A DNA stretch of 64,000 nucleotides from a virus (Duplodnaviria > Caudoviricetes), in IMG/VR virus record IMGVR_UViG_3300028914_000074, positions 6,088 to 70,087 of that record. The stretch is one strand, 5' to 3'. A program made the translations under genes and the position numbers. Below, one piece after another: positions 4,449 through 64,000 of the stretch. Each line of letters begins with the position of its first letter. Positions within the stretch are counted from its first letter, which is position 1. Under the pieces are notes generated by a model. The model was not told the origin of the DNA and made no database searches. It saw only the letters and a list, made by a program, of their open reading frames with translations.

Positions 4449-4474
4449 AAAACGCACCCGTAAAAAGTGCGTTT
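4449..4474 (-). terminator. hairpin between cassette genes
   Basis: AAACGCAC...GTGCGTTT inverted repeat. Confidence 0.45.
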
Positions 4475-4540
4475 CTTGTTTAACTCTTGTTTAACTCTTG
4501 TTTAACTCTTGTTTAACTCTTGTTTAACTCTTGTTTAATT
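4475..4540. repeat. 11-bp tandem repeat (CTTGTTTAACT) x6
   Basis: Five perfect copies from 4475 plus one variant (CTTGTTTAATT); overlaps the stop codon of 4524..4814. Confidence 0.95.
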
Positions 4541-4814
4541 CATTTTGCACTTGCGGAACCATTGTTTGATAAGCCTGTTGCACTTGCTGTTGTGGCATTG
4601 TTCCAGATTGCATAAGATATTGGCCTATCATCTGCGGATTTCCGTTAAATTTCTTGATTTCCTCATACTGTTGCTGATTGATTTTTCCGTTCTGAATGAG
4701 CATATCCGCAAGCATATTAGGATTTTGTTGTGCCTGTTTTATGGTTTGAATAATCCGCATCATTCCATTCATGCCACCATTCATGCCACCCATCATTCCA
4801 AATAAAGGATTCAT
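4524..4814 (-). CDS. Met/Gln/Gly-rich small protein
   Basis: MNPLFGMMGGMNGGMNGMM...QQQVQQ. Confidence 0.75.
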   Translation of the reverse strand: MNPLFGMMGGMNGGMNGMMRIIQTIKQAQQNPNMLADMLIQNGKINQQQYEEIKKFNGNPQMIGQYLMQSGTMPQQQVQQAYQTMVPQVQNELNKS

Positions 4815-60590: not shown

Positions 60591-61118
60591 TTAACACCTT
60601 CCTACTTTTCTTTTTATGTAATTCAGAACATCTTTCGCACATTGCTCTGGATTGTCTTTTAGTTTTGATCCGCTAAAATGCAAAATGTCATATCCGCGCA
60701 GCTTCAAATCATAATCCCTTTTATTGTCATAATCCACCTGGTATTTACTTATCTTATGATAATTATGTCCGTCACATTCTACTATAAGTTTGTAATCCGG
60801 GTTTCTCCTATCAAATATCAGAAAATCAGCAACATACCTTTTATCAGAAATAAAAATATCGTGTTGTGGGATAACCTGAATAAATTGGTTCCCATTATCA
60901 AGCAAAAGTAATCTGAATGACAGCAGGAACAATTTTTCTATCTCACTATCGCAATTATTTGTGTCTATGACAATATCATTCAGTTTTCCATCTAATTTAT
61001 TTGGCATGGAAGAATTTTTCTGAATAAAATCCCATACAATATTGCAACATTGTTCGGATAGTTCCAATAATACTGACAAAGCTATGCTACCGTTTTCAAA
61101 GTGCATATTATACCTCAA
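60591..61118 (-). CDS. DUF559/Vsr-like PD-(D/E)XK nuclease
   Basis: YVADFLI..LIVECDGHNYH..DNKRD..L..RGYDILHFSG. Confidence 0.75.
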   Translation of the reverse strand: MRYNMHFENGSIALSVLLELSEQCCNIVWDFIQKNSSMPNKLDGKLNDIVIDTNNCDSEIEKLFLLSFRLLLLDNGNQFIQVIPQHDIFISDKRYVADFLIFDRRNPDYKLIVECDGHNYHKISKYQVDYDNKRDYDLKLRGYDILHFSGSKLKDNPEQCAKDVLNYIKRKVGRC

Positions 61119-61240
61119 AAAAATCGCTCAATAGAGTGTCTGCACCACTCCATGAGCGATCTATAGTAAAAGAGACTAATCCCTTTATACCCATGTTCAT
61201 TTTGTAAGTGTGCAGAACTTACTACAGATAGTATAGCACG

Positions 61241-61732
61241 TCATTCAGCAGATTTCAATAGCTTTTCTCCATTTTCAATCAGTAGTTTTCCCAATTCCTT
61301 GAAATGTCTGTTTCTCTCAATAAAGGCGTTCAGTTCTGCCTTAATCCTGTTGAATACTATGGCACTTGTTTCTTTGTCGGACAACACAACATCAATGCTC
61401 TGGTACTGTGCATTCACTTTTTTAGGACTGATATTGACTACGGCAGATACTTTTCTTTCCTTTTCCTCATCGTCAAGATAAACAACCCTTAAATGAACGA
61501 TTGCGTGTCTTGATTGTTCTAGCCTATACTGTTCCGCAGCTATGCCATCATTCCACTCAAAAAGTTCATGCGTAGGTGAATCGGAAGGTCTTGATCGTTC
61601 CAAAAACTCTTCCTTTGTCACGGTTCCACATTCCTCTTGAATTTCCTCCAACACGCCACCAACAACATCTGCATTTACCTTTGGCGTATATCCTTCTCCC
61701 CATTCATACTTTCTTTTTGGCTGATATACCAT
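61241..61732 (-). CDS. hypothetical protein downstream of the pentamer array
   Basis: 163 aa; SPTHELFEWNDGIAAEQYRLEQSRHAI; RBS AAAGGGG directly after the last GGCAGGC. Confidence 0.75.
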   Translation of the reverse strand: MVYQPKRKYEWGEGYTPKVNADVVGGVLEEIQEECGTVTKEEFLERSRPSDSPTHELFEWNDGIAAEQYRLEQSRHAIVHLRVVYLDDEEKERKVSAVVNISPKKVNAQYQSIDVVLSDKETSAIVFNRIKAELNAFIERNRHFKELGKLLIENGEKLLKSAE

Positions 61733-61757
61733 TGATTGTTTCCCCTTTCTTTTTATT

Positions 61758-62120
61758 GCCTGCCAAAACCTACCACAACTCGACTTACCTTGCCAAACCG
61801 AGCCGTGCCAAGCCTGCCATAACGCACCAAAACGTACCGCGACCTACCAATCCGCAACTGACCATAACGTGCCTGCCATAACACAACTCACACCACAACA
61901 AACCTTGCCGTGCCTTAACCCAACGAACGCCACCTTGCCTGCCAAAACTTAACCTACCTTACCTTACCTTACACTACCCGACCCAAACTTGCCTCGCCTG
62001 CCAGACCTTAACTTAACCCACATTTCCTTGACACACCATGACTCAACTTGCCAAGCCTGCCAAGCCTTAACTCACCTGAACAAACCCTTCCTGAACTTAC
62101 CCCTCCCTACCATGCCTGCC
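61758..62120 (-). ncRNA. pentamer-periodic guide-like RNA array (6 units, GGY/NN alternation)
   Basis: GGCAGGC at 61758, 61812, 61871, 61937, 61996, 62055, 62114 (spacing 54, 59, 66, 59, 59, 59); between them NN alternates with GGT/GGC/GTT/GGA/GTC triplets. Confidence 0.85.
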
Positions 62121-62123
62121 AAA

Positions 62124-62160
62124 AAGTCAAGGCAAAGCCAAATAGACAATGCCTTGACTT
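62124..62160 (-). other. 11-bp perfect hairpin leader of the array
   Basis: AAGTCAAGGCA / TGCCTTGACTT with 15-nt loop. Confidence 0.8.
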
Positions 62161-62168
62161 CCATTTTA

Positions 62169-62828
62169 CTACTCGATTACGATGTGATAGGTTCCAAACG
62201 AACCATCTTTCTCAGGACGCCATTCGCCAATTCCTACTGAATATCCTCCGGCATTGATAATGTTTACAATCTGTTCAAGCGTCATATCTCCGCTTGCGTT
62301 GTATTCCAGAATCATTTCCATAGACCAATTCCGAAACTCTGCACGATAACGCAAATCTGCGCTTCCACTGCCGATTCTGACCATATCCTCACGCATGATA
62401 GGAGTTGAACCTTTAATCTCTGCCATTTCTCCGTATTCAGTTTTAAGGAAATACGAACCACGCAAGGACATCTGATTTTTTACCCACCCGTTGCGATATG
62501 CAGCCGAATTTCCTGCCATCTTGATTGCACCAACCGGGAATCCCCACTTTGCACCATTCTTTACTGCATCCTCAAACGCCTCAACGGTACTTTCTTCCGG
62601 CTTTCCTTCAAGCCAATACATACTCTGAATGAAATCGTCATAAGGATCACGGACGGACTTGCTCTTTGTCTTAGTTGCCTTTGTCTGCGCCTCAAGCATC
62701 ATACGCTTTGCCTTTTCAGACCACGCATGAACGATCAGCGGCGTATCTCCAACAATCTTAATCTTGACACGCTTAATATCAAGCGGTCTAATCTCAACTA
62801 CAGTTTCCTCTTTCTTTGTTGCTCCCAT
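62169..62828 (-). CDS. RAMP/Cas7-like protein (Vipr-like)
   Basis: N-terminal strand IKIVGDTPLIVH, GFPVGAIK, and C-terminal Gly-rich loop GGYSVGIGEWRPEKDGSFGTY are typical of the RAMP architecture; adjacent to the array. Confidence 0.7.
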   Translation of the reverse strand: MGATKKEETVVEIRPLDIKRVKIKIVGDTPLIVHAWSEKAKRMMLEAQTKATKTKSKSVRDPYDDFIQSMYWLEGKPEESTVEAFEDAVKNGAKWGFPVGAIKMAGNSAAYRNGWVKNQMSLRGSYFLKTEYGEMAEIKGSTPIMREDMVRIGSGSADLRYRAEFRNWSMEMILEYNASGDMTLEQIVNIINAGGYSVGIGEWRPEKDGSFGTYHIVIE

Positions 62829-62876
62829 TTTTTGTTTCTCCTTTCAATTTGAAATTTGTTGTTTGGTTCTAATGTC

Positions 62877-62905
62877 ACTATACTACATTATAGGTATACT
62901 GTCAA
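62877..62905 (-). promoter_or_regulatory. sigma-A promoter of the RAMP-array operon
   Basis: TTGACA-17-TATAGT. Confidence 0.8.
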
Positions 62906-62917
62906 TAGATAATTACA

Positions 62918-64000
62918 TTATTTTGTGGTTTTTATCACTTTCACAGCGTTCTGCATTATCCCCAAAATTGACGGCAAAGCTATCCCATTCCCCCATAGCT
63001 TATATTCCGCACTATCTGAATGAGGCACGTCATCACACCAATCCTTTGGAAATCCCTGCAATGCGGCACACTCGCAAGGAAGTAATCTCCGCACCGCATA
63101 TTCTCCGTCATTTTCTGGTGGATTCATAAATTCATCTACCATCTGTCTTTTCTCCTTTCGTATGATATATGCTTGACCCCCCATATGACTTTTCGCCTGA
63201 ATATATTGCATTGGCAATTCCGTCCTCTGTGTATATTGCTTTGCTTTGTACGTCTCCGTTATTTAGGTTCATGTTTTCTCACCATTACTATCTGCTGATC
63301 GTGCATACAGTTCAGCGCACCCATCTTGTCCTGAAGGTAAAATTGGTGTGCCTGTCCGTTTCCGATGCACCAACACGTATTGCTGCCCCCCCCTCATGCC
63401 ACATCCGGCATAAAGGCTTTCAGCGTGTCCATCTTCCGTCATTATGTGTCTACTCTGCACGTCAAAAGGATTTAGGCAACTCATTGTTTCTCCTTGTTAC
63501 TACTCCGTGTACTTCCGTTGTGTTCAGCGTATACATCTTGCTCCCGTCATCGTTAATTCCAGGACCTTTGTGCGATGGACGGTTCCCGTTTCCTTCAATC
63601 ACGGCCAGAACCATCACCCCCCCTGATTACAAGCAGGACAACCGCCATTAAGGTCTAGCGTCCTTGCCGTGGTCACTTCCTGTATTCCGCTGTTCGGATT
63701 GCTTGATTTCATGGAATTGCTTGCATACGCAGATATGTTAAAGCATCTCATTTTCTTACCATCACCGCCTGTGGCTGTTTGTAATCTCTGCTTGCAAGCG
63801 TGTTCGCCTGTTCTTCCCATATGTAAGTGTTCCCCATCTTCTCGTCTACCGAATAGCATTCAGGTCTGCTCCCCCCCCCTAATGGGGATGAACAATGTTT
63901 GGTCGTTGCTTGTGCCTAGAGTAGCTGACTTGTCATTCTGTATCAATGCTCCCTTGCCTCCTCCTTCGCACCCCCCCCGAACTTTTAAGGTGTAAACAAT
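62918..64000 (-). CDS. C5-cytosine DNA methyltransferase, 3' part, fragmented (runs off right edge)
   Basis: Motifs IX/X VRRLLPCECAALQGFP...YKLWGNGIALP; upstream TRD-like modules are out of frame at poly-G tracts. Confidence 0.75.

What the first reader, a model, noticed from the sequence alone, without database searches (positions are those of the whole stretch)
61241..62905. Compact phage operon: promoter - RAMP/Cas7-like gene - pentamer RNA array - accessory gene (candidate non-CRISPR RNA-guided system)
Seen: a perfect sigma-A promoter, a 219-aa gene, an 11-bp hairpin, a 363-nt non-coding array with strict 5-nt periodicity, and a coupled 163-aa gene. Established: RAMP proteins such as Cas7/Csm3 have an N-terminal beta strand and a C-terminal Gly-rich loop and polymerise on RNA at a fixed nucleotide step. 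The protein shows both sequence features (IVGDTPLIVH; GIGEWRPEKDGSFG). Inference: one protomer binds each conserved triplet and displays the variable dinucleotides as a gapped guide. There are no cas1/cas2, CRISPR repeats or nuclease, so repression of competing phage or host genes is more plausible than cleavage. This matches my recollection of the reported VIPR systems (Vipr + GGY/NN vrRNA), which I cannot verify here.
Basis: partly seen in the sequence, partly recalled or inferred. Interest (0 to 1): 0.96.

Follow-up and report, generated by a model that had tools for sequence, protein, structure and literature searches.

The report
Phage VIPR RNA-guided silencing locus
This rumen phage carries a VIPR system, a CRISPR-like RNA-guided DNA-silencing kit first described in 2026 preprints, and one of its six guide RNAs appears aimed at the integrase gene of mobile elements living in rumen bacteria.

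Summary
Window 61116-62905 (minus strand) is one operon: promoter, vipr gene, hairpin, six-unit pentamer RNA array, accessory gene, terminator.

- **Protein:** the 219-aa protein matches the solved SUSP1 Vipr protein (PDB 36pp; profile E 8.5e-14, hhalign 98.6%). It folds like Csm3/Cas7 and keeps the residues that grip the GGY bases.
- **Array:** each unit is G-[G/T]-Y-N-N. Each guide is about 12 pentamers and shares one base with the next, giving the 59-nt period. This fits the 'staggered' arrays mentioned in the VIPR discovery preprint.
- **Co-occurrence:** in 159 of 166 related loci the same kind of array lies on the same strand downstream of vipr, with different NN content.
- **Accessory gene:** it is a conserved partner with a weak winged-helix likeness, and is not detectably related to SUSP1 vap1.
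- **Target lead (new here):** under the published one-base-skip rule, guide 5 matches 23 of 24 read bases in 12 of 14 distinct footprints (22 and 21 in the other two) of the catalytic H-x-x-R box. The gene is a tyrosine recombinase family found in metagenome contigs, some from sheep rumen. The skipped base is always the wobble position. One such integrase sits at the edge of a conjugative-element-like island. I rate this target about 60-65% likely.

VIPR is already published, so this is a new member of a known kind. The scan also noted this array and accessory gene in separate first-reader entries.

The parts
62877..62905 (-). Sigma-70/sigma-A type promoter: TTGACA, 17-nt spacer, TATAGT
   Evidence: Best promoter-like site in the region, 11 of 12. 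It lies 49 nt upstream of the vipr start codon. Function is inferred.
62169..62828 (-). vipr gene, 219 aa: a single-RRM RAMP protein that would bind one pentamer of the guide RNA per protomer
   Evidence: phmmer hit to PDB 36pp_D 'SUSP1 Vipr protein', E 2.4e-6. Family profile hit E 8.5e-14. hhalign 98.6% against the SUSP1 CDS. AlphaFold2 pLDDT 95.6. Foldseek top hits are all Csm3/Cas7 with prob 1.00. phrog_4652.
62121..62160 (-). Stem-loop plus T5 between vipr and the array: a terminator-like hairpin, possibly a leaky attenuator
   Evidence: RNA fold -23.7 kcal/mol, z -4.8, and 0 of 200 shuffles fold as well. It is not conserved in most relatives, where the array starts at or just after the vipr stop codon.
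61760..62116 (-). vrRNA array: six head-to-tail guides of G-K-Y-N-N pentamers, each ending in the constant pentamer GGCAG and sharing its last G with the next guide
   Evidence: Guide coordinates are 62057-62116, 61998-62057, 61939-61998, 61873-61939 (irregular), 61814-61873 and 61760-61814. Sources. No Rfam family matches.
61814..61873 (-). Guide 5, with a predicted natural target in tyrosine-recombinase genes of integrated mobile elements
   Evidence: The 10-NN exact pattern gave 18 metagenome hits, 17 in one integrase family. All 17 are in codon phase 0. The match is 21-23 of 24 when the 11th and 12th NN are included.
61241..61732 (-). vap-like accessory gene, 163 aa: weak winged-helix-like N-terminal domain plus a C-terminal helical hairpin
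   Evidence: phrog_15946, no Pfam family. A homologue sits next to vipr in 145 of 166 related loci. AlphaFold2 pLDDT 93.7. Winged-helix proteins dominate weak fold matches, Z 5-6.7. No detectable homology to SUSP1 vap1.
61116..61162 (-). Intrinsic terminator closing the operon: long hairpin plus T7
   Evidence: RNA fold -23.7 kcal/mol, z -6.0, and 0 of 200 shuffles fold as well.

Best explanation
The locus is a complete VIPR (Viral Interference Programmable Repeat) system carried by a roughly 70-kb phage of rumen bacteria.

Shown here:
- The 219-aa protein is a homologue of the structurally solved SUSP1 Vipr, with a Cas7/Csm3-like fold.
- The array is built of G-K-Y-N-N pentamers with variable NN.
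- Protein, array and accessory gene travel together in relatives.

Inferred from the published mechanism:
- The operon is transcribed from the promoter at 62905. The hairpin after vipr may let only part of the transcripts run into the array.
- The array yields six guides of about 12 pentamers each.
- Vipr protomers bind one pentamer each, bury the G-K-Y bases and display the NN pairs.
- The filament reads double-stranded DNA as NN-skip-NN-skip and blocks transcription without cutting.
- The winged-helix-like accessory protein assists on DNA.

Inferred from searches here, about 60-65% likely:
- Guide 5 reads codon positions 1 and 2 across the catalytic H-x-x-R box of a family of tyrosine recombinases. 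These belong to integrated mobile elements, at least one of them conjugative-element-like, in bacteria of the same habitat.
- The phage would therefore silence the element's integrase or excision gene during infection. Published work shows SUSP1 does this to its satellite.

Targets of the other five guides were not found.
For: **Protein.**
- PDB 36pp_D SUSP1 Vipr matches at E 2.4e-6 with the single sequence and 8.5e-14 with the family profile. hhalign gives 98.6%.
- The published GGY-contact residues H17, R138, D177, W178 and R179 align to H34, R162, E202, W203 and R204. The H17-H34 pair comes from a weak N-terminal alignment stretch. R162 and R204 are invariant in 81 diverse relatives.
- The fold is Csm3/Cas7-like.

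**Array.**
- Scaffold statistics are, and the array is unique in the genome.
- The same caller recovers the published SUSP1 vrRNA positions.

**Co-occurrence.**
- Of 166 related loci, 159 have a same-strand array downstream of vipr: 112 as vipr-array-vap, 33 as vipr-vap-array, 14 with an array but no vap seen.
- In the first 86 loci only one opposite-strand run was found, and the 3 array-less loci end at or just after vipr or vap.
- Guides are hypervariable between arrays, at most 72% alike.

**Staggering.**
- The register shift between successive runs is -1 in 298 of 313 cases.
- Delimiter spacing is 5n-1 in 472 of 624 cases across 135 loci. This fits the one-base-overlap arrays described for fig. 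S18 of the discovery preprint.

**Target.**
- 17 of 18 exact hits fall in one PF00589 integrase family, all with the skipped base at wobble.
- There are 14 distinct footprints. Identity is 98.8% and 99.4% at codon positions 1 and 2, and 58.9% at wobble.
- The integrases are only 45-66% identical to each other in most pairs.
- Two hits come from AUXO01, the sheep rumen metagenome.
- There is no match of 80% or more in the phage's own genome, which also lacks any PF00589 gene.
- Published precedent: SUSP1 vrRNA4 reads an excision recombinase at codon-determining positions.
Against: No expression, processing or binding data exist for this locus.

The scaffold is looser than the published GGY. Position 2 is T in 35% of pentamers, and the guides lack the 3' tail and pseudoknot of the studied type II systems. 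Processing and filament capping are therefore unknown.

The accessory protein is not related to the one VIPR accessory protein that has been tested.

The target lead is one independent coincidence in a very large database:
- The same scan gave one unrelated hit (L131, wrong phase).
- The 17 integrases were selected by the pattern itself, so their conserved footprint is partly circular.
- A second guide, from a related array (L001), hits the same gene in phase at 24 of 28. However, shuffled guides give 1-6 hits at that threshold, so this adds little.
- The integrase was not found in 399 sampled genomes of the class of G006, a goat-omasum Clostridia MAG.

Guides 1 and 6 found nothing. The hits of guides 2 and 3 are not clearly above reversed-order controls.
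Confidence: 0.87

Rival explanations
1. It is a genuine VIPR system, but the guide-5 match to integrases is a chance hit. The real targets are other phages, satellites or host genes not represented in the collections searched.
For: Twenty specified bases against hundreds of millions of metagenome records give roughly one chance hit; one unrelated hit was seen in the same scan. A family with a conserved peptide multiplies one coincidence into many hits. Overall guide-versus-target counts do not exceed shuffled guides. Five of six guides have no convincing target.
Against: The match is in codon phase 0 in all 17 loci. It extends to 23 of 24 read bases in 12 of 14 distinct footprints once the next two NN are added. 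It covers a known catalytic box and falls in the same class of gene as the experimentally proven SUSP1 target. My rough joint chance estimate is below 0.03 even before the gene class is counted.
Confidence: 0.33
2. The system regulates the phage's own genes, as a developmental switch, rather than attacking other elements.
For: The locus sits among early replication-type genes such as primase-helicase and a methyltransferase. An RNA-guided repressor could in principle time gene expression.
Against: No guide matches the phage's own 70-kb genome at 80% or more of read positions; the best are 16 of 22 and 11 of 14. The discovery preprint likewise found no self-targeting. Guides differ completely between closely related phages, which fits an arms race better than a fixed regulatory circuit.
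Confidence: 0.05
3. The pentamer tract is not a guide RNA. It could be a DNA-level element (iterons, a recombination or packaging site) or decayed coding sequence, and the RAMP-like protein acts alone.
For: There are no transcript data. A terminator-like hairpin with T5 lies between the gene and the tract.
Against: Strand-specific co-occurrence with vipr in 159 of 166 loci. A conserved scaffold with hypervariable NN. Conserved -1 staggering. Conservation of the residues that bind GGY in the solved complex. No long open frame, since period 5 breaks every reading frame.
Confidence: 0.03
4. It is a degenerate or minimal CRISPR-Cas remnant: a solo Cas7 with a decayed array.
For: The closest solved folds in the structure library are Csm3/Cas7 subunits.
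Against: Sequence identity to those subunits is 9-16%, whereas the SUSP1 Vipr is found by sequence alone. No Cas1 and no repeat-spacer array are present in the complete phage genome. The repeat unit is 5 nt, not 25-40 nt.
Confidence: 0.02

Closest known systems
SUSP1 VIPR system (type II VIPR; Escherichia phage phiSUSP1, KT454805; PDB 36pp/36PK)
   Same: Homologous Vipr protein with the same GGY-contact residues. Tandem 5-nt repeat guides of about 12 units. A small accessory gene in the operon. Phage-borne, with no cas genes. The likely target is a recombinase of an integrated mobile element, read at codon positions 1-2.
   Different: Only distant sequence similarity, mostly in the C-terminal half. 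Gene order here is vipr-array-vap, whereas SUSP1 has vrRNA1-vipr-vap1-vrRNA2-4. The guides here abut with a one-base overlap and have no 3' tail or pseudoknot. The scaffold is G-K-Y. The accessory protein is unrelated by hhalign.
Staggered-array VIPR systems mentioned in the discovery preprint (fig. S18 legend)
   Same: Guides derived from positions overlapping by one nucleotide, so that the end of one guide marks the start of the next. This is exactly what the 5n-1 spacing shows here and in 135 relatives.
   Different: The figure and type tables are not held, so I could not confirm that this clade is the one shown there, nor which of types I-VII it belongs to.
Uncharacterised homologues in cultured actinophages (Gordonia phage Pipp gp42; Mycobacterium phage Donkeykong gp49 and relatives)
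   Same: 31-40% identical full-length homologues, with same-strand pentamer arrays beside the gene, also staggered.
   Different: Different hosts. In Donkeykong the array lies upstream of the gene. The arrays are annotated as protein-coding genes in the public records.
Csm3/Cas7 backbone subunits of type III and type VII CRISPR effectors
   Same: RRM core, thumb and glycine-rich loop. Polymerise along a guide RNA with periodic base flipping (preprint text).
   Different: A 6-nt step and contiguous pairing in CRISPR, against a 5-nt step with two read bases here. No CRISPR array, Cas1/2 or nuclease partners.

Membership tests
VIPR system | Protein homologous to a reference Vipr | tested here: met
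   PDB 36pp_D SUSP1 Vipr: E 2.4e-6 (single sequence), E 8.5e-14 (profile), hhalign 98.6%.
VIPR system | Minimal RAMP fold: single RRM core, thumb, glycine-rich loop | tested here: met
   AlphaFold2 pLDDT 95.6. All top Foldseek matches are Csm3/Cas7 with prob 1.00. The G-loop GIGEWRPEKDG lies at 199-209.
VIPR system | Residues that bind G1, G2 and Y3 in the solved complex (H17, R138, D177, W178, R179) | tested here: met
   They align to H34, R162, E202 (conservative change), W203 and R204 (alignment; residue list). The H17-H34 pair rests on a weak alignment stretch. R162 and R204 are invariant in 81 relatives.
VIPR system | Adjacent same-strand array of GGYNN-type pentamers (at least 4 units) with variable NN | tested here: met
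   About 69 pentamers in six guides. G 96%, K 100%, Y 93% in register. The scaffold is G-K-Y, a 'related consensus' in the preprint's wording.
VIPR system | Gene and array co-occur across relatives while NN content differs | tested here: met
   159 of 166 loci. Guides are at most 72% alike.
VIPR system | Accessory vap gene in the operon | tested here: met
   The 163-aa partner is conserved in 145 of 166 loci, with a weak winged-helix-like fold. Which of vap1-6 it is could not be determined; it is not vap1.
VIPR system | Guides transcribed, processed and bound by Vipr | not testable with these tools
   Needs small-RNA sequencing and pull-down.
VIPR system | Natural targets obey the one-base-skip rule, typically in other mobile elements, with no self-targets | tested here: inconclusive
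   Guide 5 matches the integrase family at 21-23 of 24 read bases in wobble phase. No self-target. The other guides are unresolved, and the controls are mixed.
Type II VIPR (SUSP1 / P. fulva clade) | Invariant 3' tail with pseudoknot after each repeat tract; vap1 accessory | tested here: not met
   Guides abut directly with a shared base and no tail. The accessory protein is not homologous to vap1.
CRISPR-Cas (type III/I Cas7) | Repeat-spacer array and cas1/cas2 or effector partners | tested here: not met
   No Cas1. No CRISPR-like direct repeats in the window.

The most novel reading that the evidence does not exclude
This clade is a distinct VIPR variant, and in this phage it is aimed at the integrase of a conjugative or other non-phage integrated element.

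The variant features are tail-less guides overlapping by one base, a relaxed G-K-Y scaffold, and its own winged-helix accessory protein.

If so, VIPR would mediate phage-versus-ICE conflict in rumen bacteria, using a guide that reads the near-invariant catalytic box of a whole recombinase family.
Probability: 0.3. Interest if true: 0.6.

Novelty: new member of a known kind. Interest (0 to 1): 0.45.

Why it matters
VIPR was described only in 2026 and studied in Escherichia and Pseudomonas systems.

This locus shows the same machinery in a rumen phage. It belongs to a very large family: 2881 clusters at 50% identity.

It gives a clean example of the staggered, tail-less array form. It also gives a concrete, testable target prediction that repeats the published logic: silence a rival element's recombinase by reading only codon positions 1 and 2.

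Cultured mycobacteriophages and Gordonia phages carry the same family. These offer tractable systems, and their arrays are currently annotated as protein genes.

Tried and rejected
- **Pfam:** nothing for either protein.
- **blastn against phage records:** the locus found nothing.
- **tblastn of phage records:** did not reach SUSP1, so I fetched it by accession.
- **The search for related loci with the 81-sequence alignment:** A 13-sequence alignment worked.
- **Exact 10-NN scans of viral contigs:** guides 1, 5 and 6 gave 0 hits.
- **Guide 2:** 1 hit, in wobble phase, in a multi-HTH gene of a 62-kb phage. Its reversed-order control gave 4 hits, so I treat the hit as chance.
- **Guide 3:** 9 hits in 3 families against 0 for its control, but none in wobble phase and the guide is A-rich. 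Left unresolved.
- **Scanning the five whole candidate phage genomes with all guides:** no convergence.
- **Guide 5 with all 11 NN exact in metagenomes:** 0 hits. Ten NN gave the integrase family.
- **Testing 591 guides from 167 loci against the integrase loci:** no enrichment over shuffles.
- **Searching the integrase in 399 sampled genomes of the class of G006 (a goat-omasum Clostridia MAG):** nothing at E 1e-50.
- **The look-up of encoding contigs:** closed after two look-ups, so arrays of the closest relatives (97-99% identity) could not be fetched.
- **VIPR type:** could not be assigned, because the preprint's figures and tables are not held.
Full report
**What is there.**
On the minus strand the region reads as follows:
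- A promoter-like site at 62905-62877: TTGACA, 17 nt, TATAGT, 11 of 12.
- A ribosome-binding site and a 219-aa gene at 62828-62169.
- A strong hairpin at 62160-62124 followed by T5 (-23.7 kcal/mol, z -4.8).
- A 357-nt G/T-rich non-coding tract at 62116-61760.
- A 163-aa gene at 61732-61241, starting 32 nt after the tract.
- A hairpin plus T7 terminator at 61162-61116 (-23.7 kcal/mol, z -6.0).

So the finding's anatomy is correct. The promoter is near-perfect rather than perfect.

**The array.**
- GGCAGGC occurs seven times, at spacings of 59, 59, 59, 66, 59 and 54 nt.
- Inside each unit the sequence is a run of pentamers. Position 1 is G in 52 of 54. Position 2 is G in 35 and T in 19. Position 3 is a pyrimidine in 50 of 54. 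Positions 4-5 are variable.
- Because 59 = 12 x 5 - 1, the register slips by one base at each boundary.
- The simplest reading is that each guide is 12 pentamers, the last being the constant GGCAG, whose final G is also the first G of the next guide.
- Unit 4 is irregular, with 67 nt and two local register breaks.
- Period-5 power of G beats all 2000 shuffles.
- A simple G-K-Y-N-N run caller finds nothing else on either strand of the whole 70,087-base phage genome.
- No Rfam family matches.

**The protein.**
- Pfam has nothing. PHROGs gives phrog_4652, of unknown function.
- A plain phmmer search of PDB sequences finds 'SUSP1 Vipr protein' (36pp_D) at E 2.4e-6.
- A profile of 81 diverse relatives finds it at E 8.5e-14.
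- hhalign against the SUSP1 coding sequence, which I fetched from KT454805, gives 98.6%.
- The structure preprint names H17, R138, D177, W178 and R179 as the residues holding G1, G2 and Y3. In the alignment they correspond to H34, R162, E202, W203 and R204. The H17-H34 pair comes from a weak N-terminal stretch of that alignment. R162 and R204 are invariant across the 81 relatives.
- AlphaFold2 gives a confident model, pLDDT 95.6. Its best matches among solved structures released up to April 2026 are all Csm3/Cas7 backbone subunits.
- The family is very large: 2881 clusters at 50% identity with E up to 0.001.

- I collected 86 loci from genomes and metagenomes and 80 from viral contigs.
- Of the 166, 159 have a same-strand G-K-Y-N-N array downstream of vipr. 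There are 112 as vipr-array-vap (Clostridia-type, like the window), 33 as vipr-vap-array (mostly Alphaproteobacteria, like SUSP1), and 14 with an array but no accessory gene seen.
- In the first 86 loci only one opposite-strand run was seen, and the 3 loci without an array end at or just after vipr or vap.
- NN content is unrelated between arrays, at most 72% over 8 or more units.
- Across 135 loci the delimiter spacing is 5n-1 in 472 of 624 cases. The register shift between successive runs is -1 in 298 of 313. The one-base stagger is therefore a conserved property of the clade.
- The same caller recovers the published SUSP1 vrRNA positions, which validates it.

**The accessory gene.**
- It matches phrog_15946 and has no Pfam family.
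- tblastn finds a homologue beside vipr in 145 of the 166 loci.
- The model is confident, pLDDT 93.7.
- Residues 12-118 resemble winged-helix domains at modest scores: Z 5-6.7, with many MarR, Fur, SelB, Z-alpha and ScpA-type hits. Residues 120-163 form a helical hairpin.
- This agrees with the preprint's statement that several VIPR types have winged-helix-like or HTH-like accessory proteins.
- The protein is not detectably related to SUSP1 vap1.
- The absence of a 3' tail and of vap1 means the locus is not type II. I could not assign the type, because the figures and tables are not held.

**Targets.**
Method and negative results:
- I applied the published rule: NN, one skipped base, NN.
- No guide matches the phage's own genome at 80% or more.
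- In viral contigs, exact 10-NN patterns for guides 1, 5 and 6 found nothing.
- Guide 2 found one site and guide 3 found nine sites in three families. Reversed-order controls gave 4 and 0 hits respectively, and the guide-3 sites are not in wobble phase. I do not claim them.

Guide 5 in metagenome contigs:
- The 10-NN pattern gave 18 hits, and 17 lie in one gene family.
- The family is a tyrosine recombinase of roughly 360-400 aa, with PF00589 plus SAM-like N-terminal domains.
- The footprint encodes T-M-H-A-F/L-R-A-T-F-A-T-R, which is the H-x-x-R catalytic box.
- In all 17 loci the read bases are codon positions 1-2 and the skipped base is the wobble position.
- Adding the 11th NN and the constant 12th NN gives 23 of 24 in 12 of the 14 distinct footprints, and 22 and 21 in the other two.
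- The 14 distinct footprints are 98.8% and 99.4% identical at positions 1 and 2, but 58.9% at wobble.
- The proteins are mostly only 45-66% identical to each other.

Context of the targeted genes:
- In L119 the integrase sits at the edge of an island with PrgI, TrbL/VirB6-like and VirD4/TraG-type genes, next to a chemotaxis gene. That is a conjugative-element-like context.
- In L121 it neighbours an AAA_25 ATPase.
- Other flanks are chromosomal genes, including a dockerin protein.
- Two hits are from AUXO01, the sheep rumen metagenome.
- The phage itself has no PF00589 gene.
- The pattern closely parallels the published SUSP1 vrRNA4 footprint on a satellite excision recombinase.

**Caveats on the target.**
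- It is one independent coincidence in a very large collection.
- The same scan gave one unrelated, out-of-phase hit (L131).
- The integrase set was selected by the pattern itself.
- A guide from a related phage array (L001:5087-5156) hits the same gene in phase at 24 of 28, but shuffled guides give 1-6 hits at that threshold.
- The integrase was not found in 399 sampled genomes of the class of G006, a goat-omasum Clostridia MAG.
- I put the target at roughly 60-65%.

**Mechanism.**
- Shown: homology, fold, scaffold, co-occurrence and operon structure.
- Inferred from the preprints: one protomer per pentamer, burial of the scaffold bases, display of NN, triplex-type binding to double-stranded DNA, and transcriptional silencing without cleavage.
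- My own inference: the terminator-like hairpin between vipr and the array may be leaky. It would keep vipr mRNA in excess over array RNA, which makes sense because about 70 protomers are needed per array transcript. The hairpin is not conserved in most relatives, so this is a local feature at best.

**Verdict.**
The kind is already published, so the novelty is limited to three things: a new member from a distinct, very abundant clade; the documentation of the staggered G-K-Y array form across many loci; and a testable integrase target. No cas1 and no CRISPR-type repeats are present.

Noticed in passing
window 60591-61118 (-): A 175-aa DUF559 / MTES_1575 PD-(D/E)xK-type endonuclease-like gene lies directly downstream of the VIPR terminator. 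It is not next to vipr in relatives; RecT and DUF3799 follow in L001.
   Followed up: partly
window 62918-63217 (-) and upstream to 64000: The ORF just upstream of the VIPR promoter is only the C-terminal piece of a C-5 cytosine DNA methylase (PF00145, profile positions 244-321). The rest is split over several short ORFs.
   Followed up: no
window 4463-4550 (+): Six tandem copies of an 11-nt unit (TCTTGTTTAAC), iteron-like.
   Followed up: no
L217 (Gordonia phage Pipp MN234179) 2144-2359; L218 (Mycobacterium phage Donkeykong NC_051648) 1008-1353: Cultured actinophages with a homologous vipr gene carry staggered pentamer arrays. In the public records these are annotated as protein-coding genes (Pipp gene 43; Donkeykong gene 48 and the start of gene 49).
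   Followed up: partly
L140, L147, L151 (viral contigs), about 10-50 nt after the vipr stop: Some relatives have a 13-bp hairpin between vipr and the array (-22 to -30 kcal/mol). In at least L147 and L151 its 3' arm contains the GGCAGG delimiter. This may be a processing or folding signal distinct from the window's hairpin.
   Followed up: no
L097 4489-4523 (and L092, L094, L096, L098): Guide 3 matches 22 of 24 read bases at the start of a small ORF immediately downstream of a Cro-like HTH gene, in a group of 28%-GC phages. It is not in wobble phase. The reversed-order control gave 0 hits, so it remains an open lead.
   Followed up: partly
L122 13011-13045 and 13664-13695: One metagenome contig carries two convergent copies of the targeted recombinase family, one of them only a 108-codon open frame. 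Guide 5 matches them at 21 and 19 of 22 read bases (22 of 24 for the first with the 12th NN).
   Followed up: no
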